Of a stretch of 40,000 nt of DNA, positions 18,917 to 33,947 are shown piece after piece (positions within the stretch are counted from its first letter, which is position 1; the number at the start of each line of letters is the position of its first letter). The stretch comes from Methanococcoides sp. AM1. GTDB taxonomy: Archaea > Halobacteriota > Methanosarcinia > Methanosarcinales > Methanosarcinaceae. Below the pieces are notes generated by a model that was not told the origin of the DNA, made no database searches, and saw nothing but the letters and a program-made list of their open reading frames with translations. A program made the translations under genes and the position numbers. Location of the stretch: positions 39,797 to 79,796 of the forward strand of contig NZ_CAAGSW010000001.1 in assembly GCF_900774055.1 (NCBI RefSeq), given 5' to 3'.

Positions 18917-19013
18917 TCAGTGGTAATTTGCGTGGTTCTGGTCAGAAAAAAAGCTGCCCTACATCAGCTGGGAGAATTGAGTTAGGCAGCACTTGTATTT
19001 TGTCGAGGCGTGA

Positions 19014-19074: not shown

Positions 19075-19117
19075 TTTTATAAATTTTTGATTTCCATAGG
19101 TTCGAATTTTACCCCTC

Positions 19118-19129
19118 GCATAGAAAGTT
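19118..19129 (+). repeat. Target site duplication, left copy (gcatagaaagtt)
   Basis: This 12-mer abuts the outer end of TIR-L, and an identical 12-mer abuts the outer end of TIR-R at 33936-33947. Confidence 0.65.
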
Positions 19130-19179
19130 GGGGTAATAGGTATCTTGAAAAATAGATACTCAGAAATTTAAGAAGTAAT
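19130..19179 (+). repeat. Casposon left terminal inverted repeat (TIR-L)
   Basis: ggggtaataggtatcttgaaaaatagatactcagaaatttaagaagtaat. The reverse complement of 33886-33935 differs at 3 of 50 positions. Confidence 0.8.
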
Positions 19180-19215
19180 CTCTAAAAATAGAATAGTAAA
19201 AAGTTTGAATGTAAC

Positions 19216-20040
19216 TCATTTGAGTTCATCTGATAAATCATCAATTGTGCTTTTTGCCTCATTAAATATTCTGATTGCATTTTCCTTTTTATTTGATTTC
19301 ATTTGCGTTAAATCATCAAGGTTATTGAAAATGATTCGATTTTGATTAGATGGATGAGTAATAGAAATCATTTTTACATTCTTATTTGATAAAGTCGGAT
19401 CATTTTTCCAGAAATCGATTTGATGAAATCGACCGTCTTTTGTAGGTGTATCAAGAAAAATGATTAACTTCAATTGATTACTAAATCTAAAGTGCTTGAA
19501 AAAGCATCCTATTTCATTTTGTACATTTCTGAACACTTTTTTTGGTGGTTCAGCACTTTTTTTCACTGGATGAAGTATAGCACAGTTAAATGCTTGAGTT
19601 AATTGAATTCCAGAATCTAAACTATTATCTAAATTTTCAAACATACCATTCCATTTCGTCTTTGGGTCGTTTGTTTCCCAATATGATACAATTTTGCTCA
19701 AGTAATCAAATAAACCAATTTTACTCAAATACTCAAAAAGATTATCTCGCATTCCATTAGCATAAATAGATGAAAAACAAGCTTCATGCATTGACTTACC
19801 ATTTTTCAATGCTTTTACAAATAATTCATGACTTTTATCAGATGTTGTTTTCCCACAAATAATTACATGAGGTTTATCAGGATAATTTCCTACTGGAGAA
19901 TAATTTATAAAATATTCACCTACTTTTAGTGGAATTTTTATTTCTGTTGTTGAATTAGTTTTTATTTTCTCAAATTCATCATAGAATATTTGTTTATCAT
20001 TAAAACATGAAAGAGAACAAATGTCTGTTGTTTTTAGCAT
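19216..20040 (-). CDS. Hypothetical protein; weak uracil-DNA-glycosylase-superfamily-like motif order
   Basis: 274-aa ORF next to TIR-L. KPHVIICGKTTSDKS and a late MISITHPSNQNRI resemble UDG-fold motif A (hydrophobic strand-G-x-x-P/T-G/S) and motif B (HPS..N) in the right order and spacing. This is motif-level evidence only. Confidence 0.5.
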   Translation of the reverse strand: MLKTTDICSLSCFNDKQIFYDEFEKIKTNSTTEIKIPLKVGEYFINYSPVGNYPDKPHVIICGKTTSDKSHELFVKALKNGKSMHEACFSSIYANGMRDNLFEYLSKIGLFDYLSKIVSYWETNDPKTKWNGMFENLDNSLDSGIQLTQAFNCAILHPVKKSAEPPKKVFRNVQNEIGCFFKHFRFSNQLKLIIFLDTPTKDGRFHQIDFWKNDPTLSNKNVKMISITHPSNQNRIIFNNLDDLTQMKSNKKENAIRIFNEAKSTIDDLSDELK

Positions 20041-20151
20041 ATATGTGACTCCATCAAATAAAATTTAAAACGACATTCACTATAAACTTATTTATACAAA
20101 TAAATAGTGTATGTTCTAAAGTTTAACTACTCTTACTATTGAGGATTCCCA

Positions 20152-22992
20152 ATGCTCGATCTCAATGAATTCCAAACCAGAACACAGAAAATAGATGTTC
20201 TTCTCAAAGAACACGGATGGGATATTTCTGACAGATCAAAGGTTATAGTTGAAGTTGATACCAAGCAATCTGATTTTAGTAAGCAGATTTACAAGCAGGT
20301 TAATGAAACTCTGAAAAACGATATGGATAGCAAGTATGCCGATTACCTTTTGCTTGATAGTCTAGGTGATCCTATTGCTATTATTGAAGCAAAGAGGACC
20401 TCAAAAGATTCTATTGTAGGACAAAAACAGGCTGAGCAATATGCTGATGATATTAAAGCTCAAACTGGAAAAGATGTCTTCATTTTCCTTTCCAATGGTT
20501 ATGATATCTGGTTCTGGGATCGGGAACGCTACCCTATGAGACAGGTCAAAGGATTCCATTCTCAAAAAGACCTTGAAAGAATGGATTACCAGATACAAAG
20601 CGGGAAGATTGAATCTGATATCGAGGTAAATACGGATATTGTTGACCGTGCAAAAAGCATCGAGGTTACAAAGAGGGTTGTTGAACATATCCGTAAAGGA
20701 CATCGAAAAGCCCTGATTGTCATGGCAACGGGTACGGGCAAGACCCGTGTTGCAATGGCCATTATTGACCAGCTTATGTGTGAAGGTCGTATTCAGAAGG
20801 TCTTGTTTTTAGCTGATCGTAAGGAACTTAGAAAACAGGCTTATGATAAGGGATTTATGAAATTTTTCCAGGATGAGTCTAAGGAAAAAATCCTTTCAGG
20901 CAATTATGACCCTAACAAAAGACTTTATGTTTCCACCATCCAGACCTTCCAGGAAATCTATAACCAGAAAGACAAGAATGGAAGATACAAGATATCACCG
21001 GGAGAATTTGACCTTATCTTCTCAGACGAAGCTCATAGGTCTATTTACTCCAAGTGGAAAGGAATCTTCACCTATCTCGATGCCGTCCAGATAGGACTGA
21101 CAGCTACACCAGCGGACCTTGTTGAGAGGGATACATTCAGGTTCTTTGAATGTGATGATAATACTCCCACAGCCCTTTACTCCTATGATGAAGCAATAAA
21201 GGATGGTGTTCTTTGTGATTTCCGCAAGAATGTATCAGGAGCAAGAACACATTTCCAGATAAAAGGGATTAAACCTGATGATCTCAGCGAAGAGGAACGT
21301 GAGGAATTGATCGCGAAAGGTATTGACCCTGATACGATTGATTTTGAAGGTACTGAGCTTGAGAAAAAGGTTGCTGTGAAAGGGACATCTGAAGCAATTG
21401 TCAGAGAATTTATGGAGAATTGTATCACTGATGAGTCTGGAACATTGCCTGCCAAGACCATCTTCTTTGCAATATCAAAGAAACATGCTCTGAGATTATG
21501 GGAGGCTTTTGAAAGACTATACCCTGAATACAAGGGACAAATGGCAAAGAGGATCGTCTCTGATGATTCAAGGGCTTCAGAATTGATCAAAGATTTCCGG
21601 GAAAAATCATTGCCAAGGGTCGCAATCTCTGTTGACATGATGGATACAGGTATTGATGTTCCTGAGGTGTGTAATCTTGTGTTTGCAAAACCTGTGTTCT
21701 CAAAGATCAAATTCTGGCAAATGCTGGGTAGAGGTACAAGGTCTGATGCTGTATGCGAAAATCGGGAATGGTTGCCAAATGGTGAGAAGGAATATTTCAA
21801 AGTATTTGATTTTTGGAACAATTTCGAGTACTGGGAAATGAACCCAAAGGGTGTCAAGAACGAATCCCCTGAAGCTATTACAAACCGTATATTCCTGTTC
21901 AGACTCAAACAACTGGACGAACTGAAGACTCGTGGTAATGAGGAACTTGTAGAAAGGGTCAAGACGACCATTATTGAAGACATCAAATCCCTTCCACAGG
22001 ATTCTGTGAGTGTAAAGGAACACCTTCAAGATGTGGAAAAAGCACTTTCTCCAAAGCTCTGGGACAATGTCGGACTCAATCCGATTGAGTTCCTTCTGAA
22101 GAAGATAATGCCTTTGATGAAGTTTAAACCGGGCGTGAATCTCAATGAAGCAAACTTCACCTTAAAGTGTGAGAAGCTTGCCTATGCTATCCTTCAAAAT
22201 AATACCCAAGAAATTGAACGTCTGAAAGAACCCATTGCCCAAATGGTTGACCGCCTACCAAGGACTTTGGACAAGGTAAAGGAAAAAGAGGATCTGATTG
22301 ACAAAGTCCTGTCCCATTCATTCTGGAATGATATTGTTTTTGAGGATGCCAAGATGATGATCGATGAGATCTCACCTCTGATGCGCTATATGAACAAAGA
22401 GCCCAGAAAAACCATTGTAATTGACATGGGGGACACGATAGAAGAGAGGAAAGAGTGGGTAATCGGTGATGAAAAAGCTGAATATGAAACAGCATACATG
22501 GAGAAGGTGGAGAACAGGATCAAGAAACTTGCAGAAACACATCCTGTTATCATCAAGATCAAGAATGATGAGGTCTTGACAGAAAGCGACCTTCAACAGC
22601 TTGAAGATACACTTTTCAACTCGGAGCTTACCCTCAGCGAATCAAGGCTCAAGCAGATATTTCACAGGCAGAACTCAACCCTTGTGGATTTCATAAGACA
22701 TATCCTTGGACTTTATGAATTCCCATCACCTGATAATACGATCAAGGATGCATTCCAGACCTTTGTTATCGAGAATAACAAACACTATACAGCAGACCAA
22801 CTCAATTTCATCAGAACAATCCAGACGGTTTTCCTGCGAAAGAAACATGTCGAGTTCTCAAACCTCTGGAACGCTCCATTCACAAACTTTGGCACAAATG
22901 CACCCATGCCAATGTTCAGCAAGGAAGAATTAAATGCTTTCATTGACATCTGCAATGGAATCGAGAGAGAAATATTTGCTTCAGAGGCATGA
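20152..22992 (+). CDS. hsdR: Type I restriction enzyme R subunit (HsdR)
   Basis: N-terminal PD-(D/E)xK nuclease (ADYLLLD...IAIIEAKRTS), SF2 helicase motifs (MATGTGKT, FSDEAHR, GLTATP, DTGIDVPEV, QMLGRGTR) and an EcoEI-R-like C-terminal domain. Confidence 0.92.
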   Translation: MLDLNEFQTRTQKIDVLLKEHGWDISDRSKVIVEVDTKQSDFSKQIYKQVNETLKNDMDSKYADYLLLDSLGDPIAIIEAKRTSKDSIVGQKQAEQYADDIKAQTGKDVFIFLSNGYDIWFWDRERYPMRQVKGFHSQKDLERMDYQIQSGKIESDIEVNTDIVDRAKSIEVTKRVVEHIRKGHRKALIVMATGTGKTRVAMAIIDQLMCEGRIQKVLFLADRKELRKQAYDKGFMKFFQDESKEKILSGNYDPNKRLYVSTIQTFQEIYNQKDKNGRYKISPGEFDLIFSDEAHRSIYSKWKGIFTYLDAVQIGLTATPADLVERDTFRFFECDDNTPTALYSYDEAIKDGVLCDFRKNVSGARTHFQIKGIKPDDLSEEEREELIAKGIDPDTIDFEGTELEKKVAVKGTSEAIVREFMENCITDESGTLPAKTIFFAISKKHALRLWEAFERLYPEYKGQMAKRIVSDDSRASELIKDFREKSLPRVAISVDMMDTGIDVPEVCNLVFAKPVFSKIKFWQMLGRGTRSDAVCENREWLPNGEKEYFKVFDFWNNFEYWEMNPKGVKNESPEAITNRIFLFRLKQLDELKTRGNEELVERVKTTIIEDIKSLPQDSVSVKEHLQDVEKALSPKLWDNVGLNPIEFLLKKIMPLMKFKPGVNLNEANFTLKCEKLAYAILQNNTQEIERLKEPIAQMVDRLPRTLDKVKEKEDLIDKVLSHSFWNDIVFEDAKMMIDEISPLMRYMNKEPRKTIVIDMGDTIEERKEWVIGDEKAEYETAYMEKVENRIKKLAETHPVIIKIKNDEVLTESDLQQLEDTLFNSELTLSESRLKQIFHRQNSTLVDFIRHILGLYEFPSPDNTIKDAFQTFVIENNKHYTADQLNFIRTIQTVFLRKKHVEFSNLWNAPFTNFGTNAPMPMFSKEELNAFIDICNGIEREIFASEA

Positions 22993-22995
22993 TTA

Positions 22996-24150
22996 ATGAA
23001 ACATGAATTACCAGACGGCTGGAAATATATCCAGCTTGGCGACTTAACCAAAATAAAAACTGGAAAACTAGATGTAAATGCACAAGATAAAGATGGTCAG
23101 TATCCTTTTTTTACATGTTCTCAAAAAACCTACAAGATAGCTTTCTACGACTATGATTGTGAATGTGTCCTAGTTGCAGGAAATGGCGATTTAAATGTGA
23201 AATATTATGATGGTAAATTCAATGCATATCAGAGAACTTACATAATAGAATCATTGGATAAAGAGATCCTTGATGTAAAATATTTATATTATTTTTTGCG
23301 TAAATATATAACAATATTGAGAAATAAAACTATTGGAGGAGTTATAAAATACATAAAGCTTAGTTACTTGACTGAAATAAAATTACCAATTCCTTCCATT
23401 AAAATCCAGAAAAAAATTGTCGCCATCCTCGAAAAAGCAGACGAAACAAGAAAACTCCGAACACAGGCTGATGAATTTTCACACCAGCTTCTTCAAAGCG
23501 TATTCATGGAGATGTTTGGAGATCCTGTTAAAAATAATAAAGGATGGAACATTGAGAAAGTTGAAGATGCTGTATTAAGTATCGAAGCTGGATGGAGCGC
23601 AAACGGGGAGCAACGACGTCACACATTGAATGAATACGGTGTTTTAAAAGTAAGTGCTGTTACTCAAGGAATATTTTTACCTGAAGAACACAAAGCAATT
23701 AAGGAAAATACTGAATTAAAAAAAGTAGTTATCCCTGAAAGAGGCGATGTATTATTTAGCCGAGCCAATACTCTTGAACTAGTCGGTGCAACGTGCATTA
23801 TCAAAAAAGATTATCCATGCTTATTATTACCTGACAAGTTATGGAAAATTAAAGTTGATACAAAGGTAGTAACACCTGTTTTTTTAAAATTCGTTTTGAG
23901 CCATCCTGCAATCAGGGCAGAAATTTCTAAAAAATCCACTGGTACAAGTGGTTCTATGTACAATATATCAATGAAGAAATTGAAATCAATTAACATAACC
24001 ATTCCACCGATTGAAATTCAAAATAAATTCACAAATATTGTTGATAGAATCGAACAAATTAAAGATAATCAAAAGCAATCATCCGAAGAAATTAGCACTC
24101 TTTTTAATGCACTTACGCAGAAAGCCTTCACCGGAGATTTGATACATTGA
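22996..24150 (+). CDS. hsdS: Type I R-M specificity subunit (HsdS), two target-recognition domains
   Basis: 384 aa. Two variable TRDs are separated by the conserved central helix (IKIQKKIVAILEKADETRKLRTQADEFSHQLLQSVFMEMFGDP) and followed by the C-terminal helix (IEIQNKFTNIVDRIEQIKDNQKQS...LTQKAFTGDL). Confidence 0.88.
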   Translation: MKHELPDGWKYIQLGDLTKIKTGKLDVNAQDKDGQYPFFTCSQKTYKIAFYDYDCECVLVAGNGDLNVKYYDGKFNAYQRTYIIESLDKEILDVKYLYYFLRKYITILRNKTIGGVIKYIKLSYLTEIKLPIPSIKIQKKIVAILEKADETRKLRTQADEFSHQLLQSVFMEMFGDPVKNNKGWNIEKVEDAVLSIEAGWSANGEQRRHTLNEYGVLKVSAVTQGIFLPEEHKAIKENTELKKVVIPERGDVLFSRANTLELVGATCIIKKDYPCLLLPDKLWKIKVDTKVVTPVFLKFVLSHPAIRAEISKKSTGTSGSMYNISMKKLKSINITIPPIEIQNKFTNIVDRIEQIKDNQKQSSEEISTLFNALTQKAFTGDLIH

Positions 24151-24425
24151 GCATACCAAGGTACAGGAAAAAATTCAAATTTGGAAGTTTAAAATCTTTA
24201 GTTGATCTGAATTGGGGGAAATACGGACCCTATGGTTATGTTGGTGCAAAAGCAAAAAATGGTATCTCTGTAGGTTACTCAATAGGTACTCGTGGACAAT
24301 ATGGATACGGTAGTTACAATAAAAAGGGATGGCAAGCTCGAATAAAATATAATATCGAATCTGGAAATATCTCGCCTCGAATAAAGAAATATACATCCAG
24401 AAATAAAAGACAAAAATGGAACTAA
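24147..24425 (+). CDS. Small basic Gly/Tyr/Lys-rich ORF between hsdS and hsdM (uncertain)
   Basis: 92 codons are open in AT-rich DNA. The TTG start overlaps the hsdS stop and the ORF ends 4 nt before hsdM. Composition is low-complexity (GKYGPYGYVGAKAKNG...GQYGYGSYNKKGW). No known motif. Confidence 0.3.
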   Translation: MSIPRYRKKFKFGSLKSLVDLNWGKYGPYGYVGAKAKNGISVGYSIGTRGQYGYGSYNKKGWQARIKYNIESGNISPRIKKYTSRNKRQKWN

Positions 24426-24429
24426 TATC

Positions 24430-25944
24430 ATGAGACTTTCACCTGAAATCAAAACAAAGATAGATGGCCTCTGGGATAGGTTCTGGAGTGGAGGTATGTC
24501 AAATCCCTTACAGTCCATTGAACAGATGTCATATCTCATATTCATGAAAAGGCTTGAGGACATGGATGTTCTAGAGCAGAGGCGTGCATATGCCATGGAT
24601 AAGGAGTACATATCCATCTTTGAAAGCAATGAGGATTGCAGATGGTCTGTTTGGAAGCATAAGTCCGCTGAGGATATGCTCAAGCACGTCAGAGACGTCG
24701 TATTTCCGTTCATAAAGACAATTCGTGATGGTGAGAAAACGCTGTTCTCACAGCACATGAAGGATGCTGTATTTGTTATTCCAAAGCCAACTCTTTTGCA
24801 GGAAGCAGTTGGTATTATCGATGAACTCAATATAGCTGCTCAGTCAACAGATGTGCAGGGAGATCTCTATGAATACCTTTTAAGTCAGCTATCCACAGCC
24901 GGCAAGAATGGACAATTCAGGACTCCAAGGCACATAATCAGGATGATCGTGGAGCTTGTTGACCCCGACATCAATGACAAGATATGCGACCCTGCGTGTG
25001 GTACAGGTGGTTTCCTTTTCACCGCTCACAAACATATACTCAGGAAATACACATCTCCTGATTTGATCGAGCAGGATCAAGAAGGGGAATATCACAACCT
25101 TATTGGAGATAATATCACCGAACAGGAGCACTGGGATAAACTACACCATGATACATTTTATGGCTTTGATTTCGAGTCCACAATGGTCAGGATAGGACTT
25201 ATGAACATGGTGCTCCATGGAATCAAATATCCTCACATCGAGCTTGTTGATACTCTCTCAAACCTATACAGTGAAGAAAATTGCTATACCGTGATTCTTG
25301 CCAATCCACCTTTCAAAGGCAGCATAGACAAGGATGATATCAATGACAAGCTGACACTTGACACAAAGAAGACCGAACTGCTCTTTGTGGAGAACATGAT
25401 CCACTTGTTGGAGATCGGTGGAAAATGTGGTGTAATTGTTCCTGATGGTGTACTCTTTGGTAATTCAAGGGCACACACGAACCTTCGTAAGATACTGCTT
25501 GAGAAATGCCAGCTTGAAGGTATCGTCTCCATGCCATCAGGGATCTTCGAACCCTATGCAGGAGTATCAACTGCTGTACTGATATTCACCAAGGGAGGAA
25601 ACACGGAAAAGGTCTGGTTCTATGACATGGAAGCGGATGGCTATTCTCTTGACAAAAAGAGAAATCCTATCGACATGAAAGGGGATATTCCTGATATAAT
25701 TGAAAGTTTCCGGAACAAACATGAAGAGAATCCTGAAGACAGGAAGGGTAAATGCTTCTATGTTCCATTTGATGAGATCAAGGAAAATAACTACGATCTT
25801 TCAATTTCCAAGTACAAGGAAATTGAGTATGAAGAGATTGAATATGAGATGCCAGAAGTTATTCTTCAGAAGATCGATGAGCTTGAGGATCAGATAAAGG
25901 CTAATGTTGCTGAGTTGAGGAAGATGTTAAAGCAGGATCTATAA
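24430..25944 (+). CDS. hsdM: Type I R-M N6-adenine DNA methyltransferase subunit (HsdM)
   Basis: HsdM N-terminal domain, AdoMet motif I (ICDPACGTGGFL), catalytic motif IV (ILANPPFKG) and a C-terminal coiled coil. Confidence 0.93.
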   Translation: MRLSPEIKTKIDGLWDRFWSGGMSNPLQSIEQMSYLIFMKRLEDMDVLEQRRAYAMDKEYISIFESNEDCRWSVWKHKSAEDMLKHVRDVVFPFIKTIRDGEKTLFSQHMKDAVFVIPKPTLLQEAVGIIDELNIAAQSTDVQGDLYEYLLSQLSTAGKNGQFRTPRHIIRMIVELVDPDINDKICDPACGTGGFLFTAHKHILRKYTSPDLIEQDQEGEYHNLIGDNITEQEHWDKLHHDTFYGFDFESTMVRIGLMNMVLHGIKYPHIELVDTLSNLYSEENCYTVILANPPFKGSIDKDDINDKLTLDTKKTELLFVENMIHLLEIGGKCGVIVPDGVLFGNSRAHTNLRKILLEKCQLEGIVSMPSGIFEPYAGVSTAVLIFTKGGNTEKVWFYDMEADGYSLDKKRNPIDMKGDIPDIIESFRNKHEENPEDRKGKCFYVPFDEIKENNYDLSISKYKEIEYEEIEYEMPEVILQKIDELEDQIKANVAELRKMLKQDL

Positions 25945-25986
25945 TTCTGCTTTTCGTTTCTAAAATGCTATTTATTAGATTTTTTC

Positions 25987-26049
25987 TTGTCTTTTAGCTT
26001 GTCTTTTATGTCGCTTTTCAGTTGTCGCATTGTCTCCTGGAATTGTCGC
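25987..26049. repeat. Iteron-like array of (T/A)TGTC(G/T)C heptamers downstream of cas1
   Basis: Six copies start at 25987, 25999, 26008, 26022, 26030 and 26043 (ttgtctt, ttgtctt, atgtcgc, ttgtcgc, ttgtctc, ttgtcgc). Four more (ctgtcgt, atgtcgc, ctgtcgc, ttgtcgc) lie at 26252-26287 inside the cas1 3' coding end. Confidence 0.5.
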
Positions 26050-26089
26050 CTAATTTTTATTGAAAAGAGACACCAAAACCCCCATGAAA

Positions 26090-27304: not shown

Positions 27305-27306
27305 TA

Positions 27307-28206: not shown

Positions 28207-28237
28207 ACTCAAATTTATACTCAAATTGGTATATAAT
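28205..28237 (+). promoter_or_regulatory. Putative operator plus TATA box of the RHH-orf213-HNH-polB operon
   Basis: A perfect 11-nt tandem direct repeat atactcaaatt (28205-28215 and 28217-28227) is followed by tatataat (28230-28237), about 32-39 nt upstream of the RHH ATG at 28269. Confidence 0.4.
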
Positions 28238-28268
28238 CTTTCCGACATTTGTTGCTTTTGTGAGAACA

Positions 28269-28406
28269 ATGAATTCTACCAGAATTATTGCAACACTATC
28301 TCCTTATCTCAAGGAGAAACTGGAAAAGCTGTCAGACAAACTAGGATGCTCTCAGGCTGAAGTGGTCAGAGTAGCATTACTGAAATTAGCCGAGGAAGAG
28401 CTATGA
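28269..28406 (+). CDS. Ribbon-helix-helix (CopG/Arc-like) DNA-binding protein
   Basis: The internal ATG at 28269 gives MNSTRIIATLSPYLKEKLEKLSDKLGCSQAEVVRVALLKLAEEEL, a beta-strand/helix/helix pattern typical of RHH proteins. ATGA overlap with the next gene. Confidence 0.6.
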   Translation: MNSTRIIATLSPYLKEKLEKLSDKLGCSQAEVVRVALLKLAEEEL

Positions 28407-29044
28407 CCAGAAGACGGTTCTCTGAGAAGTTCAGGACCTATGGAGAATGGCTCAAAGCAGAATCCCGGGATTCAAGATATGCAAAACGAATAATTCGTTT
28501 TCATGAACGTTTTCCAAACCTCATCCTTAAAGAGTTGAGGGATGTCAGGCTCAAAGACCAAGATCTAAGCACTCGCTCCTGGGACAGTCTATCATCTCAG
28601 GAAAAGAGGGACAGACAACTTTCTCTTCAAATATTAAGAGAAATAAGAACTGGTAGCCACCTTAGCCGTGTAACGGAAAAGCTTGGAGTCAAAAAGGATT
28701 TTGCTGTAAAACATCTCGGGAAATACCTCTACAAATCAGGAGGAAAGTGGAAGGTTACAGCCTCAGACAGAATTGAGGTTGAGATGCTTTTCTATGAGAG
28801 GGGAGAGGGTCAGAGAACGATCATTACAGCTAGCTCGAAGGATCGGTCCTTGATTGGTCAGTACTTTGCTCTTGTACAAAAGGCACTGAGATACAATGAC
28901 CCTACAGTTCTTGACAAGTTCAAGGATAGAACAATTGTGGATGCTGAAGGCAATGTACACCATTTTGAGACGGATCTTGATAGGTTGTATGAAATAATGG
29001 AAGCTCAGGAAGAGCCTGAGTTTTTAGAGATATATCAAAACTGA
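28403..29044 (+). CDS. Hypothetical casposon protein (possible HTH)
   Basis: 213-aa ORF translationally coupled to the RHH gene upstream and placed 3 nt before the HNH gene. No catalytic motif is recognised. Confidence 0.55.
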   Translation: MTRRRFSEKFRTYGEWLKAESRDSRYAKRIIRFHERFPNLILKELRDVRLKDQDLSTRSWDSLSSQEKRDRQLSLQILREIRTGSHLSRVTEKLGVKKDFAVKHLGKYLYKSGGKWKVTASDRIEVEMLFYERGEGQRTIITASSKDRSLIGQYFALVQKALRYNDPTVLDKFKDRTIVDAEGNVHHFETDLDRLYEIMEAQEEPEFLEIYQN

Positions 29045-29047
29045 GGA

Positions 29048-29389
29048 GTGGATACTTTGAAAAAAGAAGACTATGCGAACTATATTAGAAGGAACAAGAA
29101 AGGAAAGAAGCCACCTATTGCTTGTGCTATATGTGGAGAGGATGATAAAAGCGTTATTGAACGACATCATGTTGATGGGAGGAATAATTCAGAATGGATT
29201 AAACCTCTTTGTAAAAACTGTCATACAAAGATAACAGCAGAGCAGAACAAACTCAGCCCTAAAGCAAGATCCAAAGATGCAACTCTGCAAAATCTGAAAG
29301 CCTTTAACATAATCTCACTTGGGGCTTTGCTCAGGTTAATTGGTGAACGATTGATCAATATTGGTATGGGGATGACTGTACATGTCTAA
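29048..29389 (+). CDS. HNH endonuclease
   Basis: CAICGEDD...ERHHVDGRNNSEW..PLCKNCHTKIT gives a CxxC...HH...N...CxxCH HNH zinc-finger core. GTG start. It overlaps polB by 8 nt. Confidence 0.8.
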   Translation: MDTLKKEDYANYIRRNKKGKKPPIACAICGEDDKSVIERHHVDGRNNSEWIKPLCKNCHTKITAEQNKLSPKARSKDATLQNLKAFNIISLGALLRLIGERLINIGMGMTVHV

Positions 29390-32054
29390 GATAGCTGCAA
29401 GGGCTTTCACCCAAAAGTGTAATCCCACCACGAAAAACTACCCTCAAAGAAAAGATCCTCCTTTGAGATATGACAGAGTACTGGTATTTGATACTGAAAC
29501 AACAACTGATCAGTACCAAAACATGAAGATTGGTCATTTTGAAATATTCCAGGATGGATATACTCAGCATGAAGGGTTATTCTATGACTCTTCAAAGTTA
29601 GACGATAGTGAGAACAAGGTTATAGAGGAATATTCCAAAAATCAGAAACTTGCACTTTATACCTTAGAGGGATTTGTAGATGAAGTATTCTATCCAGAGA
29701 CATTCAATCTTGGTACGCTATGTGTTGGTTTCAATCTTGCTTTTGATATTATTAGAATAGCAAAGAGATCGGGTGATTCAAAGAAAGGGAATAAGGGTGG
29801 TTTCACTCTTACCTTGTCAGATAATCCATTCAATCCTCCTATAATCATTCGTAAGATGGGAGAATCCAACACTTACAAGTTCTCCACAACGAAACAAAAC
29901 AAAGGTGAAGAATACTTTTCGGGTCATTTCCTTGATGCTCAAACCCTTGGTGAAGTTCTCCTGCAAAAGAAGCATATCTCACTTGAGAAAGCTTGTGAGC
30001 TGCTTGACACAAAACACAAGAAAATAAAGGATATAGACCATGGTACTGTTACTAAAGAGTATATCGACTACATGATTATGGATGTTAAGACCACTTATGA
30101 TGTTTATAGGGAATTGCTTGATGAACTGGATTTATATCAGATAGATATTCCTTTAACAAAGATCTTCAGTGCAGCATCTCTCGGAAAACATGCTCTTAAG
30201 CAGTTGGGAGTTCAACCATTTCATAAACAAAACCCTCTCTTCCTGCCTGATATACTAGGTAATATCATGACTGCTTACTTTGGAGGTAGGTGCGAGTGCA
30301 TGTTCAGGAAACAGCCAAAAAAGGTCACAGTCCTTGATTTTACTAGCATGTATCCAACTGTTACAATGGTTCTTGACCTTTGGAAATTCATCATTGCCGA
30401 AAAGTTACAAAAGGAAGATGCAACCAGTGAGATCAAAGAACTGCTCTCAAAAGTGTCCCTTGAGTACTTGCAGAATAAGGAAAATTGGGAAGACTTTGTA
30501 GCAATGGTCAAAATAATTCCTGACGAAGATATACTGCCTGTGAGAATGGACTATAAGGGAAAGAAATCAACCTTGAATGTAGGACTTAACTATCTTTCGT
30601 CCAAGTCTCCCATGTGGTTTTCCTTGCCTGATGTAATCAGTTCTGTGCTCTTAACAGGGAAAGTCCCGGAGATCATTGAAGCGATCCGTTTTGTTCCTTC
30701 AGGTGTGCAGGATAGTCTTGTGGAATCATCAATTCTTGGTATTAATCTTGATCCCAGGAAAGACAATCTTATTCAGACATTTGTTGAAGAGAGGCAGAAG
30801 ATCAAAACAAGAATGAAGAGCTTGAATAGAGGCACATCAGAGTATCGTCATCTATCAAGTCAGGCTCAGGCTATAAAGATCCTTGTTAATGCCATGAGTT
30901 ATGGAATTTTCATTGAACTGAACCCCGAGGATAAGAAGAGTGATATTGAAGTCTATGGCCTTGATAGCTTTGATACGTCTGAGAATAGGTATGAGAAAGC
31001 CGGGAAGTACTTTCATCCACTGCTGGCAGTGATGATTACTTCTGGCTCACGCCTGTTTTTATCCATGGCTGAAGCCAAAGTAAAGGACCTTGGCTCGGCT
31101 CATGCTTACATGGATACTGATTCTGTGTTTGTCCCACCTGAGCACGCTCAGGAGATCATAGATTATTTCCAACCACTAAACCCTTATGATCTTGATATCT
31201 CTTTACTGAAGCCTGAAAAAGATGATATGTGGTTCTATGGGATATGTTCCAAAAGATATGCTCTTTACAACAAAGAAGGAGATAATTTCAGCTTCTATGA
31301 GCATGAGAGATCCTATAAGTTACATGGTTTAGGTCATTTGACCAATCCCTTTCCTAATAGCGATAAAGACTGGCATGCTGATGTCTGGCTGGATATTCTT
31401 CGCTTACATTATGGAATCATAAAGCCAATTGATATTGAAGAAAAATACTCTTCACTCTTTGCTGTTTCAAGGCTCACAGTTAGTACAGCTAATGTGCTGA
31501 AGAGGTTTAAAACGATTAATGACGGCCAGCCATGGTCCAAGCAGATAAAGCCTTTCAACTTCTGCAATGTCGGCTTTCAGACCATTAAAGATGATGGGAA
31601 ACCAATCAAACCATTAGCTCCTTTCTCCAAAGATCCACAGAAAATAGTCTATGAGCCATTTTTAGACTACAATACGGGTGAGATCAAGCAGGGAATGGAA
31701 TATTTCAAAACTCTGAGTAGGACAATTTTGGAGTATGCAAATCATCCTGAGTACAAGTATGAAGGAGATATTGGACAGATGAAACGCAGGCATATCCACG
31801 CGGATAGTATCGTTCTCATTGGCAAGGAGGCTAACAATATTGATGATCAAGCCTTGGATATAGGACAAGCTCAGGTCTTTATCAACAAGCAGGATATCAT
31901 GGACAAAATAATGCAATTGGATGCAGAAATGGGTAGGAAGGTTGGTATTGCTTACAGAGGTACTCTGAAAAGGATACAGGACAAAATAAAGCTAACAGGG
32001 GACATAAACCTTAATACAAATTTTATGAAAGAACTTGTGGATAAGCTCATTTGA
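29382..32054 (+). CDS. polB: Family B DNA polymerase, protein-primed type (pPolB)
   Basis: Exo I (VLVFDTETTT), Exo II (GFNLAFDIIRI), Exo III (YIDYMIMDVKTTYDVY), motif A (LDFTSMYPTV), motif B (KILVNAMSYGIF) and motif C (YMDTDSVF), all in canonical order. Confidence 0.92.
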   Translation: MSKIAARAFTQKCNPTTKNYPQRKDPPLRYDRVLVFDTETTTDQYQNMKIGHFEIFQDGYTQHEGLFYDSSKLDDSENKVIEEYSKNQKLALYTLEGFVDEVFYPETFNLGTLCVGFNLAFDIIRIAKRSGDSKKGNKGGFTLTLSDNPFNPPIIIRKMGESNTYKFSTTKQNKGEEYFSGHFLDAQTLGEVLLQKKHISLEKACELLDTKHKKIKDIDHGTVTKEYIDYMIMDVKTTYDVYRELLDELDLYQIDIPLTKIFSAASLGKHALKQLGVQPFHKQNPLFLPDILGNIMTAYFGGRCECMFRKQPKKVTVLDFTSMYPTVTMVLDLWKFIIAEKLQKEDATSEIKELLSKVSLEYLQNKENWEDFVAMVKIIPDEDILPVRMDYKGKKSTLNVGLNYLSSKSPMWFSLPDVISSVLLTGKVPEIIEAIRFVPSGVQDSLVESSILGINLDPRKDNLIQTFVEERQKIKTRMKSLNRGTSEYRHLSSQAQAIKILVNAMSYGIFIELNPEDKKSDIEVYGLDSFDTSENRYEKAGKYFHPLLAVMITSGSRLFLSMAEAKVKDLGSAHAYMDTDSVFVPPEHAQEIIDYFQPLNPYDLDISLLKPEKDDMWFYGICSKRYALYNKEGDNFSFYEHERSYKLHGLGHLTNPFPNSDKDWHADVWLDILRLHYGIIKPIDIEEKYSSLFAVSRLTVSTANVLKRFKTINDGQPWSKQIKPFNFCNVGFQTIKDDGKPIKPLAPFSKDPQKIVYEPFLDYNTGEIKQGMEYFKTLSRTILEYANHPEYKYEGDIGQMKRRHIHADSIVLIGKEANNIDDQALDIGQAQVFINKQDIMDKIMQLDAEMGRKVGIAYRGTLKRIQDKIKLTGDINLNTNFMKELVDKLI

Positions 32055-32058
32055 GAGC

Positions 32059-32907
32059 TTATTCCTCTTTTTCTTTTTGTCTTACAATCTCATCAAGTGT
32101 TTTGTCGTCTTTATTTTTCCATTCTCTCCAGCCATTTGCCGTTCTAGCTAATACAACGGAAGCGGCCAGAGATGGTGAAGAAAATGTGAAATTTTCCTGA
32201 AAAACATAAACACCATTTTCTTCTTTTAGTATCCCTTTATCTAGAAGGTTTATCCTGAAAGATTTTATTCTTTCTTTAATGGATGGAGTTTCTTTAATGT
32301 TTGATTTTGAGTCTTTATTGACAACAAAACCTTCTTCAGTATATTCACCTACTGCATCGGCCTCTTTGCTTTTACAGTAGTACATATTTTTCTTGCTCCT
32401 CTTTGATTGCTCAAAAATAGGATAGCCAAGAGTAGTCATGATTATTTTTAAGTCCTCAAAAATACGCAAAACAAAGTCTCGATCCTGATTTGTTAAAGAT
32501 GATTGAGTGGGATTGTTACTGTTTTCAAGAGTACATTTGTTAACCTTTTTTGCTTCATTGCAGGCATGGTTTTCAAGGTACTTGATATGAGCTTTGTTCA
32601 AATTGTTCTTTTCAGAAACAAAGCATATAGCTTGGTTCCAGAAGTCTTTCTCCTTGTTATGTTTATTAAGCCGAGTTAACAATACCTCAGATTCTCCAAC
32701 ATAAATACTCGGCTTTCCAACTTCGTCTTTTTCGCCTATTAGGAAATAAACACCCGGCTGAGTAAGCTCTGGATTTTGTGATGCATCACTCAATTTTGCC
32801 CTCGGAATTGAAACCGCTTTGACAATAGAATCTAAAAAATCACATATCTTAATGCTTTGGGGATTGGCATCTGGCAGGTAAATTGAAATTGTTCTTCCTA
32901 TTGTCAT
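32059..32907 (-). CDS. GIY-YIG nuclease-domain protein with a DUF4357-like C-terminal domain
   Basis: N-terminal GIY-YIG pattern (PGVYFLIG...PSIYVGESEVLLTRLNKH) and a C-terminal F.SPS.AA..V..R..NGW..WK motif (FSSPSLAASVVLARTANGWREWK), as in DUF4357 proteins commonly embedded in R-M loci. Confidence 0.72.
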   Translation of the reverse strand: MTIGRTISIYLPDANPQSIKICDFLDSIVKAVSIPRAKLSDASQNPELTQPGVYFLIGEKDEVGKPSIYVGESEVLLTRLNKHNKEKDFWNQAICFVSEKNNLNKAHIKYLENHACNEAKKVNKCTLENSNNPTQSSLTNQDRDFVLRIFEDLKIIMTTLGYPIFEQSKRSKKNMYYCKSKEADAVGEYTEEGFVVNKDSKSNIKETPSIKERIKSFRINLLDKGILKEENGVYVFQENFTFSSPSLAASVVLARTANGWREWKNKDDKTLDEIVRQKEKEE

Positions 32908-32955
32908 GAATTAAAATTCCTTTCCTAGAATTATTTTTGAACTATTAACTGGACA

Positions 32956-33801
32956 TTAAAAATGTTTTGCAAGTTGCTTTAGTAAATCTTTGTAAATGAC
33001 TAATACTCTATCATAATCATCTGACGAAATCCAACTATTATGTGCAACATGGTTTCTTGAAACTGCACTATGTTCTATCCATGTTTCTATATGGCTTAGT
33101 TTAGTAAAATAAGCATCAAACAAATCAGTCCAATTCCGTTCAATAATTTTATAAAGATCGTTTATGTCAACATAGAATAGGTCTTTATCGCCTCTTACAG
33201 AATGAAACGGTGTCTTTTCTCCATTTGCAATTCTGGTTTTCACTCTATTTCTTACTGGTCTTGGTATATCGAGATGATTCCAATAATCATCTCCATATTT
33301 ATCTTTTGATACATTATCAATGAATGTTCTAAGAGTGTTTTCAAAGCAATAAATCAACAAATAAGCTTCTGTCATCTTCTTTCCATTTTCTAAAACATCA
33401 GTTGGAATTAATTTTTTGATAGTTGCATCATTAATTGCGTCCATTTGAAGATCATTAATCATTGCTTCAACGGGTTGCCTTTCTAAGATCTCTACATTGT
33501 GATTATCTTCATTAATCATTAAATTTAATGGTTTAAGTGTTTCATTTAAGAAATCTATCTTCGGCTCCCATGTATTATTATAATTTATTTCTAAAATCGT
33601 TTCAACAATATATTGTAATTCCTTTACATTAGATATATTATTTAACAAGAGGTATTTTATTTTTTCAGGTTTGTTTGGAAGTTGTTCCATGTCAGCATCC
33701 GAAAAATAAGTCTTCAAGGCAACTTCTACTTTTCTACGTCCTCCCACGTAAAAAACATTAGCAAACTTAGATATATTTTGTTCAATTTGAGATGAAATCA
33801 T
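32956..33801 (-). CDS. Swt1-like HEPN domain protein (putative RNase toxin / abortive-infection component)
   Basis: The C-terminal half follows the Swt1-type HEPN pattern: FENTLRTFI...GDDYW...FYVDINDLYKII..NW..F, ending with the Rx4H catalytic motif SRNHVAHN. Confidence 0.6.
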   Translation of the reverse strand: MISSQIEQNISKFANVFYVGGRRKVEVALKTYFSDADMEQLPNKPEKIKYLLLNNISNVKELQYIVETILEINYNNTWEPKIDFLNETLKPLNLMINEDNHNVEILERQPVEAMINDLQMDAINDATIKKLIPTDVLENGKKMTEAYLLIYCFENTLRTFIDNVSKDKYGDDYWNHLDIPRPVRNRVKTRIANGEKTPFHSVRGDKDLFYVDINDLYKIIERNWTDLFDAYFTKLSHIETWIEHSAVSRNHVAHNSWISSDDYDRVLVIYKDLLKQLAKHF

Positions 33802-33885
33802 GACTTTAGAAGTATTTTAATTGTATTAATATGTTTTGATTTGATATAAAATTATAAGACAATATTAAAATTAAATTTGGCCAAC

Positions 33886-33935
33886 ATTACTTTTTAAATT
33901 TCTGAGTATCTGTTTTCCAAGATACCTATTACCCC
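33886..33935 (-). repeat. Casposon right terminal inverted repeat (TIR-R)
   Basis: attactttttaaatttctgagtatctgttttccaagatacctattacccc. Its reverse complement matches TIR-L at 47/50 positions. Confidence 0.8.
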
Positions 33936-33947
33936 GCATAGAAAGTT
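33936..33947 (+). repeat. Target site duplication, right copy (gcatagaaagtt)
   Basis: Identical to 19118-19129. It is followed by ggggatatagggaaatcggg, which resembles the start of TIR-L. Confidence 0.65.

What the first reader, a model, noticed from the sequence alone, without database searches (positions are those of the whole stretch)
19130..33935. Complete casposon: Cas1-solo casposase, protein-primed PolB and HNH, bounded by 50-bp TIRs and a target duplication
Seen directly in the sequence. (1) 19130-19179 and the reverse complement of 33886-33935 match at 47 of 50 positions. (2) The identical 12-mer gcatagaaagtt abuts both outer TIR ends in direct orientation. (3) Between the TIRs lies a Cas1 homolog with the ordered Cas1 motifs (NYGYALLEAE, GFLHE, YDLQEPFR), and the window has no cas2, CRISPR array or effector genes. 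(4) There is a family B polymerase with Exo I-III and motifs A-C including YMDTDS, an HNH nuclease overlapping its start, and RHH/wHTH proteins. From established knowledge, this gene set plus TIR/TSD defines casposons (Krupovic et al. 2014). Family 2 casposons occur in Methanosarcinales and insert near tRNA 3' ends. The element class is known. This copy looks intact, with all core ORFs open and TIRs about 94 percent identical, so it may still be mobile. The 12-bp perfect duplication is shorter than the 14-15 bp reported for studied casposons. It extends to 15 bp with one mismatch (ctcgcat... vs cccgcat...) only if the TIR ends are drawn asymmetrically.
Basis: partly seen in the sequence, partly recalled or inferred. 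Interest (0 to 1): 0.9.

Follow-up and report, generated by a model that had tools for sequence, protein, structure and literature searches.

The report
Intact defence-carrying casposon in Methanococcoides
This is an intact 14.8-kb family-2 casposon, a transposon that moves with a Cas1-type integrase, in the archaeon Methanococcoides sp. AM1; the element class is well known, but about half of this copy is anti-virus defence genes and it sits among leftover ends of earlier casposons.

Summary
Window 19131-33934 is a 14,804-bp family-2 casposon in Methanococcoides sp. AM1. Its Cas1 matches the crystallised M. mazei casposase over its full length (E 5.6e-194), with the catalytic residues conserved. 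All five family-2 core genes are open and full length.

Three details need correcting.
- **Target duplication.** It is a perfect 14-mer, CGCATAGAAAGTTG, with symmetric 49-bp TIRs that start GGG. This fits the published M. mazei rule (14 bp, 5'-CGCA). Seven related elements I delimited follow the same rule.
- **PolB.** "Protein-primed" is not established. Papers call family-2 PolBs RNA-primed or an intermediate cluster, and my tests gave mixed signals.

The element is not at a tRNA gene. It lies at a tRNA-Leu-3'-end-like pseudo-target, between two solo TIRs. That site is inside a 24.8-kb strain-specific island between tRNA-Ala and thiI.

No empty site exists in available data, so current mobility is unproven.

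Verdict: a new member of a known kind, of moderate interest. One open question is a recurring "TIR + tRNA-Leu-like leader + 14-mer" module found at several casposon ends.

The parts
19013..19031 (+). tRNA-Leu-3'-end-like 'leader' fragment 1 (AGGTTCGAATCATACACCC)
   Evidence: Aligns with the 3' ends of genuine tRNA-Leu genes that carry related casposons. ARAGORN and Rfam call no tRNA here.
19032..19045 (+). 14-mer CGCATTTTAAGAAG, a TSD-like target next to a solo TIR
   Evidence: Follows the CGCA + 10 rule and sits directly before a TIR-like sequence.
19046..19097 (+). Solo TIR ('TIR-S', GGGATATAGGTAACGATGAAAAACGGAAC...), remnant of an earlier casposon
   Evidence: About 91% identical over 43 nt to the solo TIR after the right TSD of the M. 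orientis casposon. Aligns with all TIR variants. No inverted partner in the window.
19098..19116 (+). tRNA-Leu-3'-end-like 'leader' fragment 2 (AGGTTCGAATTTTACCCCT), directly upstream of the integration site
   Evidence: The same unit occurs in L013, L031, L038 and L027.
19117..19130 (+). [quoted passage not shown]
   Evidence: Perfect repeat of 33935-33948; the only two matches in the window.
19131..19179 (+). Left terminal inverted repeat (49 bp, starts GGGTAATAGG)
19216..20040 (-). 274-aa cargo ORF of unknown function
   Evidence: No hit in Pfam, PADLOC or NCBIfam. A 78%-identical homologue sits in related casposon L019.
20152..22992 (+). Type I restriction enzyme R subunit (HsdR), cargo
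   Evidence: Pfam ResIII, HSDR_N and EcoEI_R_C. PADLOC REase_I 6e-132.
22996..24150 (+). Type I specificity subunit (HsdS), two target-recognition domains
   Evidence: Pfam Methylase_S, two stretches. PADLOC Specificity_I 9.9e-72.
24147..24425 (+). 92-aa ORF between hsdS and hsdM, unknown
   Evidence: No family hits. Also called as a gene in the Logan assembly.
24430..25944 (+). Type I methyltransferase (HsdM)
   Evidence: Pfam N6_Mtase 1.9e-66 and HsdM_N. PADLOC MTase_I 3.9e-178.
26090..27304 (-). Casposase (Cas1-solo with C-terminal HTH extension), 404 aa
   Evidence: PDB 6OPM (M. mazei casposase) at E 5.6e-194 over residues 2-404; best CRISPR Cas1 only 1.5e-37. No CRISPR-subtype Cas1 model reaches its cut-off. 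The residues aligned to 6OPM's active-site E162/H232/E247 are conserved.
27307..28269 (-). 320-aa conserved family-2 gene, at the position of the 'HTH-h' protein
   Evidence: Homologues sit next to cas1 in 17 of the 23 related loci tabulated (25-83% identity). No domain hit.
28403..29044 (+). 213-aa conserved family-2 gene, at the position of the second HTH protein
   Evidence: 39-79% identical homologues in related elements, same length as in MetPsy-C1.
29048..29389 (+). HNH-like endonuclease, 113 aa, overlaps the polB start by 8 nt
   Evidence: Weak Pfam HNH hit, E 0.0065. Cys/His motifs visible in the translation. Conserved upstream of polB in relatives.
29382..32054 (+). Family B DNA polymerase, 890 aa (casposon family-2 type)
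   Evidence: Pfam DNA_pol_B_2 3.5e-12 and a weak DNA_pol_B hit. 774 relatives, the top ones all about 890 aa. AF2 model pLDDT 81 with PolB fold matches.
32059..32907 (-). DUF4357 / PDC-S14 candidate defence protein (weak GIY-YIG N-terminus), cargo
   Evidence: Pfam DUF4357 4.4e-22. PADLOC PDC-S14 3.3e-105. 81% homologues in MetPsy-C1 and L019.
32956..33801 (-). Swt1-like HEPN protein / PDC-M34B, cargo
   Evidence: Pfam HEPN_Swt1 7.9e-14. PADLOC PDC-M34B 3.8e-32.
33886..33934 (-). Right terminal inverted repeat (49 bp, 46/49 matches to the left one)
33935..33948 (+). Right copy of the 14-bp TSD CGCATAGAAAGTTG
33949..33980 (+). Second solo TIR ('S2', GGGATATAGGGAAATCGGGAAAGGCAAC...), directly after the right TSD
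   Evidence: Resembles the left TIR of the Methanococcoides LMO-2 casposon. 6 of 8 delimited elements have a TIR-like sequence in this position.

Best explanation
Window 19131-33934 is an intact family-2 casposon of Methanococcoides sp. AM1. It is a self-synthesizing DNA transposon moved by its own Cas1-type integrase (casposase). Most likely mechanism: the casposase binds the two 49-bp TIRs, whose 3' ends are ...CCC-OH. It recognises a target made of a tRNA-Leu-3'-end-like 'leader' followed by a 14-bp segment starting CGCA. It joins the two ends to the two strands 14 bp apart, and gap repair then duplicates the 14-mer. Here the target was not a tRNA gene. It was a pseudo-target that already carried the remnant (solo TIR) of an older casposon on its distal side, so the new element went in between leader and resident TIR, as in tandem casposon arrays. 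The core module (casposase, two conserved small proteins, HNH, PolB) handles integration and, presumably, copying of the element. The two cargo slots carry a complete type I R-M system and two candidate defence genes, which probably benefit the host and stabilise the element. Shown here: TIRs, TSD, gene set, conserved catalytic residues, and the same architecture in relatives sitting at real tRNA-Leu genes. Taken from experiments on the M. mazei homologue: 14-bp staggered integration, the requirement for TSD plus about 30 bp of tRNA-Leu, and in vivo mobility. Inferred: that this copy is still active, the role of PolB and its priming mode, and the defence function of the cargo.
For: TIRs are 46/49 identical and unique in the window. 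The 14-bp TSD is perfect. Cas1 matches PDB 6OPM at E 5.6e-194 over its full length, including the C-terminal extension, with the residues aligned to the catalytic E/H/E conserved. No CRISPR-subtype Cas1 model passes its cut-off. The window has no CRISPR array, and no cas2 among the ORFs scanned. The five core genes are all open, have the same lengths as in relatives, and are syntenic with MetPsy-C1 and the complete relatives delimited here. A blind rule (TIR starting GGG[AT][AT]AT, 14-bp flanking repeat) recovers 8 elements, all with perfect 14-bp TSDs starting CGCA. Four of them sit at ARAGORN-called tRNA-Leu genes whose last 4 nt are the CGCA. The M. mazei casposon end is 5'-TATATCCC-3', its TSD is 14 bp with 5'-CGCA, and its target needs TSD plus 30 bp of tRNA-Leu (PMC6977970; PMC4779613). 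MetMaz-C1 moves in vivo (PMC10359463). Element GC is about 0.37 against about 0.44 in the flanks. Five related Methanococcoides genomes lack the element, and M. vulcani has a different ~4-kb insert at the site.
Against: No empty site or second insertion site of this exact element is available. Its proteins occur only in the AM1 genome and one Logan assembly of the same organism, so recent mobility is not shown. The left 'flank + TSD + TIR' unit is about 91% identical to a unit inside the M. orientis casposon at an unrelated locus. The site is therefore not simple host DNA, and the element could have arrived together with its flanks. The HNH hit and the HTH assignments are weak at the sequence level. 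The role of PolB and its priming mode are unknown.
Confidence: 0.93

Rival explanations
1. The element is a sequence-intact but immobile fossil. It inserted long ago, or was inherited or transferred as part of a larger block, and no longer transposes.
For: No polymorphic empty site was found. It lies in a 24.8-kb strain-specific island among decayed casposon ends. Published family-2 casposons of M. burtonii are decayed (PMC4779613).
Against: All five core ORFs are full length with catalytic residues intact. The TSD is perfect at 14/14. The TIR termini end in the CCC that Hickman et al. describe as contacted by the M. mazei casposase. The close M. mazei relative is active in vitro and in vivo.
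Confidence: 0.4
2. The casposon did not insert here by itself. It arrived inside a larger mobile element or recombined block, and the flanking leader, 14-mer and solo TIRs belong to that vehicle. The vehicle could be the whole tRNA-Ala-to-thiI island or a composite casposon.
For: Window 10197-34990 is absent from five related species. A 112-nt direct repeat contains the last nucleotides of tRNA-Ala (10184-10295 and 18819-18930, 88% identical). The leader + TSD + TIR-A unit also occurs inside the M. orientis element. The literature reports casposons inside other MGEs (PMC4779613 abstract).
Against: No integrase or other MGE hallmark lies outside the casposon; region 10197-18800 encodes ordinary cellular functions. 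Solo TIR-S has no inverted partner. A perfect TSD sitting exactly at the TIR-A ends is what direct casposase integration leaves behind.
Confidence: 0.2
3. The Cas1 is a CRISPR adaptation gene, or a degenerate CRISPR-Cas remnant, rather than a transposase.
For: NCBI names it 'CRISPR-associated endonuclease Cas1'. The generic TIGR00287 model passes.
Against: The window has no array, and no cas2 or effector among the ORFs scanned. Similarity to the casposase 6OPM is E 5.6e-194, against 1e-37 or worse for CRISPR Cas1s. All subtype-specific Cas1 models fall far below their cut-offs. The gene lies between TIRs alongside PolB and HNH.
Confidence: 0.01
4. The 50-bp repeat is a dispersed genomic repeat and the flanking 12-14-mer is coincidental.
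For: TIR-like sequences (GGGATATAGG...) occur at two further places in the window.
Against: Those extra copies are diverged solo TIRs lying exactly next to CGCA-14-mers. The TIR-A sequence itself occurs only at the two ends. Seven other elements show the same TIR/TSD geometry.
Confidence: 0.01

Closest known systems
Methanosarcina mazei family-2 casposons (MetMaz-C1, MetMaz1FA1A3-C2; casposase structure PDB 6OPM)
   Same: The casposase is homologous over its full length, including the C-terminal extension and the catalytic residues. The TSD is 14 bp with 5'-CGCA and an A/T-rich centre. The TIR terminus is GGG... (3' end ...CCC). The target context is like a tRNA-Leu 3' end. Solo TIRs occur at used sites.
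   Different: Different genus. The TIR is 49 bp and reads GGGTAATAGG rather than GGGATATA. The site is a pseudo-target, not a tRNA gene or M. mazei IR1. Cargo is a type I R-M system plus PDC-S14 and HEPN. The element has not been tested experimentally.
MetPsy-C1 (Methanolobus psychrophilus R15), a described family-2 casposon (locus L015)
   Same: Same core gene order. Cas1 78%, PolB 63%, the 213-aa protein 53%, and DUF4357 cargo 81% identical. It has a TIR-A-like end (87% over 47 nt) next to a CGCA-14-mer.
   Different: MetPsy-C1 has duplicated segments and UDG/AP-endonuclease cargo, and no type I R-M.
Undescribed casposon of Methanococcoides orientis (CP073710.1, locus L013)
   Same: Closest casposase from a named, complete genome (88%). 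Collinear core. A type I R-M system sits in the same slot downstream of cas1. The 14-bp TSD is CGCAGAATACTTCG. It contains an AM1-type TIR + CGCATAGAAAGTTG + leader unit and the same solo-TIR type.
   Different: The outer TIRs are a different variant (GGGATATATATAACG). PolB is only 44% identical. The R-M system is a different lineage, with an added SIR2 gene and a RES-domain cargo gene.
MetBur-C1 to C3 (Methanococcoides burtonii), the only Methanococcoides casposons in the literature searched
   Same: Same genus and family. Cas1 about 65-66% and PolB about 64% identical.
   Different: They are reported to lack TIRs and TSDs and to be partly fragmented (PMC4046053, PMC4779613). The AM1 element has both and all core ORFs are open.
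CRISPR-Cas adaptation module (Cas1-Cas2, leader-repeat integration)
   Same: Homologous integrase fold and chemistry. Integration occurs next to a leader-like sequence and duplicates a short target segment. New insertions go on the leader-proximal side of older ones.
   Different: No Cas2, no array, and a 14-bp duplication rather than a 25-37-bp repeat. What is integrated is the 14.8-kb element itself.
Pipolins and other PolB-encoding MGEs that act as defence islands
   Same: A self-encoded PolB plus a high load of defence genes. Here 5 of 12 ORFs, about 49% of the length, hit PADLOC.
   Different: Pipolins use tyrosine recombinases and piPolB. A 2024 survey found defence genes several times less frequent in 48 reference casposons than in pipolins (PMC11551731).

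Membership tests
Casposon (superfamily) | Cas1 homologue not associated with cas2, a CRISPR array or effector genes | tested here: met
   Pfam Cas_Cas1 1.6e-66. No array. No cas2 or effector among the window ORFs scanned. This holds only for the 40-kb window.
Casposon (superfamily) | Family B DNA polymerase gene within the same element | tested here: met
   890-aa PolB with Exo and Pol motifs. PolB fold confirmed by Foldseek on the AF2 model.
Casposon (superfamily) | Terminal inverted repeats bounding the element | tested here: met
   49-bp TIRs, 46/49 identical, unique in the window.
Casposon (superfamily) | Target site duplication flanking the TIRs | tested here: met
   Perfect 14-bp CGCATAGAAAGTTG on both sides.
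Family 2 casposons | Casposase carries a C-terminal HTH extension and groups with family-2 casposases | tested here: met
   Aligned to the M. mazei family-2 casposase 6OPM through residue 404 of 404 (chain residues 17-419 of 431) at E 5.6e-194. Nearest homologues include MetPsy, MetBur and MetFor Cas1. No formal tree was built.
Family 2 casposons | Conserved HNH endonuclease gene | tested here: inconclusive
   Pfam HNH only E 0.0065, below the curated cut-off. However, the ORF is conserved upstream of polB in relatives at 31-76% identity and shows Cys/His motifs.
Family 2 casposons | Two different HTH proteins, one with a C-terminal HEAT-like domain | tested here: inconclusive
   The 320-aa and 213-aa ORFs are positional homologues of the two conserved genes of MetPsy-C1 and other relatives. 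No HTH domain was detected by Pfam or NCBIfam, and no structure was predicted.
Family 2 casposons | PolB of the family-2 type (published as PolB3-related / arCOG04926) | tested here: met
   63-64% identical to the PolBs of M. psychrophilus and M. burtonii, genomes with described family-2 casposons. The best PDB profile hit is the Pyrobaculum calidifontis PolB 5MDN, consistent with the published sister group.
Family 2 casposons (Methanosarcinales type) | 14-bp TSD with conserved 5'-CGCA, at or mimicking a tRNA-Leu 3' end | tested here: met
   Literature rule from PMC4779613 and PMC6977970. There is no intact tRNA at this site.
Protein-primed PolB (pPolB) | TPR1 and TPR2 subdomains in the palm; usually a terminal protein gene upstream | tested here: inconclusive
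   Relative to 5MDN there are insertions of about 92 aa and about 26 aa at the TPR1 and TPR2 positions, and about 100 fewer N-terminal residues (alignment). The top BFVD fold hits are pPolBs. The top PDB hits are Pol alpha and archaeal PolBs. The literature calls these PolBs RNA-primed or an intermediate cluster. No terminal protein was identified.
CRISPR-associated Cas1 (any subtype) | Reaches the subtype-specific model cut-off and is linked to cas2 and an array | tested here: not met
   All subtype models fall far below their cut-offs, for example Cas1b 131 against 304 bits. No cas2 or array was found.
Type I restriction-modification system (cargo) | hsdR, hsdS and hsdM present together and full length | tested here: met
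   Pfam and PADLOC hits cover nearly the whole length of all three. Activity was not tested.

The most novel reading that the evidence does not exclude
Some Methanosarcinaceae casposon ends carry their own portable integration target. This would be a conserved module of TIR (about 52-63 nt) + tRNA-Leu-3'-end-like leader + CGCA-14-mer. Casposons would then home into each other and build leader-duplication-TIR arrays wherever one of them lands. The AM1 element would be one such nested insertion. I found the module in six places: four followed by another TIR or a whole casposon, one where the following TIR has no inverted partner, and one apparently unoccupied. A second, independent novel reading is that the family-2 PolB (no N-terminal domain, insertions at the TPR1 and TPR2 positions) is protein-primed or primer-independent rather than RNA-primed.
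Probability: 0.25. Interest if true: 0.65.

Novelty: new member of a known kind. Interest (0 to 1): 0.4.

Why it matters
Casposons are the presumed ancestors of the CRISPR adaptation machinery, but few intact copies are known outside M. mazei. The only Methanococcoides casposons in the literature I could search are decayed. This copy offers a second, apparently complete family-2 element with a slightly different TIR and a defined pseudo-target. That is useful for testing how casposases read the leader and the 14-mer. It also shows that one lineage of casposons is heavily loaded with defence genes. The cargo is type I R-M, PDC-S14 and HEPN here, type I R-M + SIR2 + RES in M. orientis, and Mrr-NACHT, TIR and CHAT in a metagenomic relative. 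This contrasts with the low defence content reported for reference casposons. The stacking of solo TIRs behind a leader-like sequence is a natural example of the leader-proximal, repeated integration invoked in models of CRISPR origin.

Tried and rejected
- **tRNA at the site.** ARAGORN and Rfam, even at E up to 10, find no tRNA at 18700-19300. The only Rfam hits there are chance snoRNA and pseudoknot matches, which I rejected.
- **Empty site.**
  - Exact-protein look-ups of Cas1, ThiI and the 194-aa flank gene found only the same organism.
  - The genome-contig scan with ThiI found six syntenic Methanococcoides loci. Five lack the whole island and one (M. vulcani) has a different insert, so none is an informative empty site.
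- **TIR and leader searches in viral contigs.** These gave one chance hit inside a coding region (L016) and nothing else.
- **PolB against the PDB.** The single-sequence search found nothing; only the profile search worked.
- **HTH domains.** Pfam and NCBIfam gave no hit for the 320-aa and 213-aa proteins.
- **Island as an integrase-type MGE.** I looked for an integrase or other MGE genes in 10197-18800 and 33949-34990 and found none.
- **Outer solo TIR as the end of a larger composite.** Rejected, because it has no inverted partner in the window.
- **Formal Cas1 tree.** PDB E-values and NCBIfam cut-offs were used instead.


Full report
**1. The observation**

- **TIRs.** 19130-19179 and 33886-33935 form a 50-nt inverted repeat, 94% complementary. 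It is far longer and better than any other in 18000-35000; the next is 32 nt at 72%. A 30-nt probe from the repeat matches only these two places in the 40-kb window at up to 3 mismatches. Shuffled sequence gives 0 matches.
- **The 12-mer.** gcatagaaagtt abuts both ends.
- **Genes.** Cas1, PolB and an HNH-like ORF that overlaps the polB start are present.
- **No CRISPR context.** The window has no CRISPR array. None of the ORFs I scanned is a cas2 or effector gene.

**2. Boundaries and the duplication**

The "short 12-bp TSD" is a drawing artefact. The direct repeat is really CGCATAGAAAGTTG, at 19117-19130 and 33935-33948. It is perfect, and these are the only two matches in the window, with 0.02 expected by chance. 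Its first base (C) and last base (G) are complementary, so they can be read as a 50th TIR pair.

Drawn symmetrically, the element is 19131-33934 (14,804 bp), with 49-bp TIRs starting GGGTAATAGG and a 14-bp TSD. This matches the published rule for M. mazei family-2 casposons:
- The TSD is 14 bp, its first four positions are CGCA, and the rest is A/T-rich (PMC4779613).
- The casposon strand ends 5'-TATATCCC-3', so the TIR starts GGG (PMC6977970).

I tested the rule blind on all loci fetched. I searched for a TIR starting GGG[AT][AT]AT at both ends plus a 14-nt flanking repeat with at most 2 mismatches. This recovered eight elements of 8.4-17.6 kb. All eight have perfect 14-bp TSDs, and all start CGCA in one orientation. 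In four of them (L018, L019, L021, L038) the CGCA is the last four nucleotides of an ARAGORN-called tRNA-Leu gene.

**3. Identity of the genes**

*Casposase.* The 404-aa Cas1 matches chain 6OPM_A, the M. mazei casposase, at E 5.6e-194 across residues 2-404. That span includes the C-terminal extension typical of family 2. The best CRISPR Cas1 in the PDB scores only 1.5e-37. The published active-site residues E162, H232 and E247 align with GVEG, GFLHE and YDLQEPFR in the AM1 protein. In NCBIfam the generic cas1 model passes, but every CRISPR-subtype model falls far below its cut-off.

*Source organism.* A 100% identical protein is recorded as Methanococcoides sp. AM1. The host assignment is supported by ThiI, which is 94% identical to that of M. 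vulcani.

*Core gene set.* The core genes are Cas1, a 320-aa gene, a 213-aa gene, HNH and PolB. In the delimited complete relatives they are conserved in this order. The 320-aa gene went undetected in one of those relatives, L021. The conserved order also holds in the M. psychrophilus R15 locus, which carries the duplicated UDG/AP-endonuclease segments described for MetPsy-C1. Gene lengths equal those of relatives, so nothing is truncated. The HTH nature of the two small proteins and the HNH assignment rest on position and homology. Domain hits are absent or weak.

**4. PolB: is it protein-primed?**

The literature says family-2 PolBs are related to archaeal RNA-primed PolB3. Their sister group is a Thermoproteales clade (PMC4046053; PMC4104785). 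[quoted passage not shown]

My tests were mixed.

Pointing to the archaeal, RNA-primed type:
- A profile of five casposon PolBs hits archaeal replicative PolBs best. The top hit is Pyrobaculum 5MDN at 5.8e-09. No phi29-type polymerase appears at E up to 10.

Pointing to the protein-primed type:
- ExoI lies at residue 37, so the usual N-terminal domain is missing.
- Relative to 5MDN there are about 92 extra residues between motif A and the fingers. There are about 26 more between motif B and the palm. These are the positions of the pPolB-specific TPR1 and TPR2.
- Pfam's best hit is DNA_pol_B_2.
- hhalign aligns residues 498-625 with phi29 382-491 straight through TPR2.

Fold searches on an AF2 model (pLDDT 81) point both ways:
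- Against the PDB, Foldseek ranks Pol alpha and archaeal PolBs first by E-value, with phi29 best by TM-score.
- Against viral models, it ranks tectivirus, SEV1 and WheeHeim pPolBs first.

I conclude that "protein-primed" is not established and the priming mode is open.

**5.

Between the left TIR and cas1 lie:
- a 274-aa unknown ORF;
- a complete type I R-M system: HsdR 946 aa, HsdS 384 aa with two recognition domains, a 92-aa ORF, and HsdM 504 aa.

Between polB and the right TIR lie:
- a DUF4357 / PDC-S14 protein;
- a Swt1-like HEPN / PDC-M34B protein.

Five of the 12 ORFs, 7.2 of 14.8 kb, hit defence models.

Relatives use the same two slots for other defence genes. M. orientis carries a different type I R-M plus SIR2 and RES. 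L019 carries Mrr-NACHT with repeats, a TIR-domain protein and a CHAT protein. A 2024 survey reported a low defence content in 48 reference casposons (PMC11551731).

The element is also a mosaic. Its Cas1 is 88% identical to that of M. orientis, but PolB is only 44%. Its PolB is 85% identical to one from Methanolobus sp. ZRKC5.

**6. The site**

In five related Methanococcoides genomes thiI lies 60-170 nt from a tRNA-Ala(CGC) gene. In AM1, 24.8 kb (window 10197 to about 34990) separates them. M. vulcani has a different insert of about 4 kb.

The first 8.6 kb of the island encodes ordinary cellular functions and no integrase. It is bracketed by a 112-nt direct repeat, 88% identical, that includes the tRNA-Ala 3' end.

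The casposon lies further in, at a sequence that is not a tRNA but resembles a tRNA-Leu 3' end: AGGTTCGAATTTTACCCCT followed by CGCA. M. mazei casposase needs the TSD plus about 30 bp of upstream tRNA-Leu, so this pseudo-leader plausibly supplied the recognition signal.

Directly after the right TSD comes GGGATATAGGGAAATCGGG..., a solo TIR resembling the LMO-2 casposon TIR. Eighty-five bases upstream of the left junction there is a second unit of leader-like fragment + CGCATTTTAAGAAG + solo TIR.

The reconstructed pre-insertion site (leader, 14-mer, solo TIR) therefore has the same architecture as this neighbouring unoccupied unit. Six of the eight delimited elements have a TIR-like sequence right after the distal TSD, and L019 has a whole second casposon there. 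This is the tandem, leader-proximal re-use of a site and the solo-TIR decay described for Methanosarcina (PMC4779613).

**7. An unexplained feature**

The block [TIR-like, 52-63 nt][GGTTCGAATYTTACCC(C/A)T][CGCA-14-mer] is homologous in six places:
- AM1, where the casposon follows it.
- Inside the outer TIR pair of the M. orientis element, followed by an AM1-type TIR that has no partner.
- Inside the left end of L038, followed by an inner TIR.
- Upstream of the L031 casposon, whose TSD CGCATAGAAAGTCG differs from AM1's by one base.
- Two places in L027, one of them followed by non-TIR sequence, that is, apparently unoccupied.

Casposase integration does not duplicate the leader, so the spread of this block needs another explanation. 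One possibility is that some casposon ends carry a portable target. Another is that one ancestral junction was spread by composite transposition or recombination. I could not decide between these. Either way, the left flank of the AM1 element is not simply host DNA.

**8. Mobility**

Evidence that this copy could be active:
- open core genes;
- conserved catalytic residues;
- a perfect TSD;
- terminal CCC ends;
- GC of about 0.37 against about 0.44 in the flanks;
- demonstrated activity of the M. mazei homologue in vitro and in vivo.

Against this, only one genome of this organism is available and no empty or alternative site was found. Activity of this copy is therefore inferred, not shown.

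**9. Verdict**

It is also incomplete on cargo and context.
- The element class is known. This copy is not mentioned in the literature I could search, where only M. burtonii appears for the genus.
- It is a new member of a known kind, of moderate interest.

Noticed in passing
window 10197-34990: The whole stretch between tRNA-Ala(CGC) (10125-10196) and thiI (34992-36170) is absent from five related Methanococcoides genomes, where the two genes are 60-170 nt apart. M. vulcani has a different insert of about 4 kb. This intergenic site is a variable hotspot.
   Followed up: partly
window 10184-10295 and 18819-18930: A 112-nt direct repeat (88% identical) begins with the last ~13 nt of tRNA-Ala. 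It looks like att sites, but it brackets 8.6 kb of ordinary cellular genes (SSF transporter, Cache proteins, cupin, PRTase, IF-2B-family) with no integrase.
   Followed up: partly
window 15166-15540(-) and 17630-17896(+): Two Cys-rich ORFs share a nearly identical ~55-aa stretch (HDPELKRDDC.LCEHFKCWNDFP.ERGYEYTCN.LNRLIKHETVE) in inverted orientation. This is an inverted partial duplication inside the island. Neither ORF has a family hit.
   Followed up: no
window 18931-19035: Possible decayed tRNA-Leu pseudogene (GCGTGGTTCTGGTCA ... GAGGTTCGAATCATACACCCCGCA). It shows acceptor-like ends and D-loop and T-loop motifs, but ARAGORN and Rfam do not detect it.
   Followed up: partly
window 19046-19130; L013 19633-19732; L038 3173-3260; L031 ~3490-3584; L027 1721-1806: A homologous module of TIR-like sequence + tRNA-Leu-like leader + CGCA-14-mer recurs at or inside casposon ends in unrelated loci. 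It is usually followed by another TIR, and once by non-TIR sequence. Its origin is unexplained.
   Followed up: partly
L013 (M. orientis CP073710.1) 19595-19667: An AM1-type right TIR with the inverted AM1 TSD and leader lies inside the outer TIR pair of the M. orientis casposon and has no partner TIR. This suggests an end swap or nesting between two casposon lineages.
   Followed up: partly
window 29382-32054 (PolB): The family-2 casposon PolB starts directly with ExoI (residue 37) and has no N-terminal domain. It carries insertions of about 92 aa and about 26 aa at the positions of the pPolB TPR1 and TPR2. The region after motif B aligns with phi29 TPR2. This sits uneasily with its published description as a typical RNA-primed PolB.
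   Followed up: partly
window 26090-27304 vs 29382-32054, compared with L013, L017, L019 and P0122: Mosaic ancestry. The cas1 gene is 85% identical in DNA to M. orientis, but polB only about 69%. PolB is 85% identical in protein to Methanolobus sp. ZRKC5. The 274-aa and DUF4357 cargo genes match L019. This points to recombination between casposons.
   Followed up: partly
L019 883-17071 and 17086 onward: This metagenomic relative at tRNA-Leu(TAA) carries CHAT, TIR-domain and Mrr-NACHT-repeat (antiviral-STAND-like) cargo. A second casposon, with another 892-aa ORF at the PolB position, follows directly after the shared TSD.
   Followed up: partly
window 33871-34443(-) and 34077-34317: A 190-aa ORF from the right flank reads through the solo TIR, the TSD and into the casposon TIR, so its C-terminus is encoded by transposon-end sequence. 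The flank contains two 150-nt-spaced repeats (84% identical) that encode a repeated motif. It is probably a truncated surface-protein gene.
   Followed up: no
L027 1826-2012 (minus strand): A segment of about 190 nt is flanked by two perfect copies of CGCATAGAAAGTCG, the first following a tRNA-Leu-like 3' end. It may be a strongly deleted element or a miniature derivative, but it has no recognisable TIRs.
   Followed up: no
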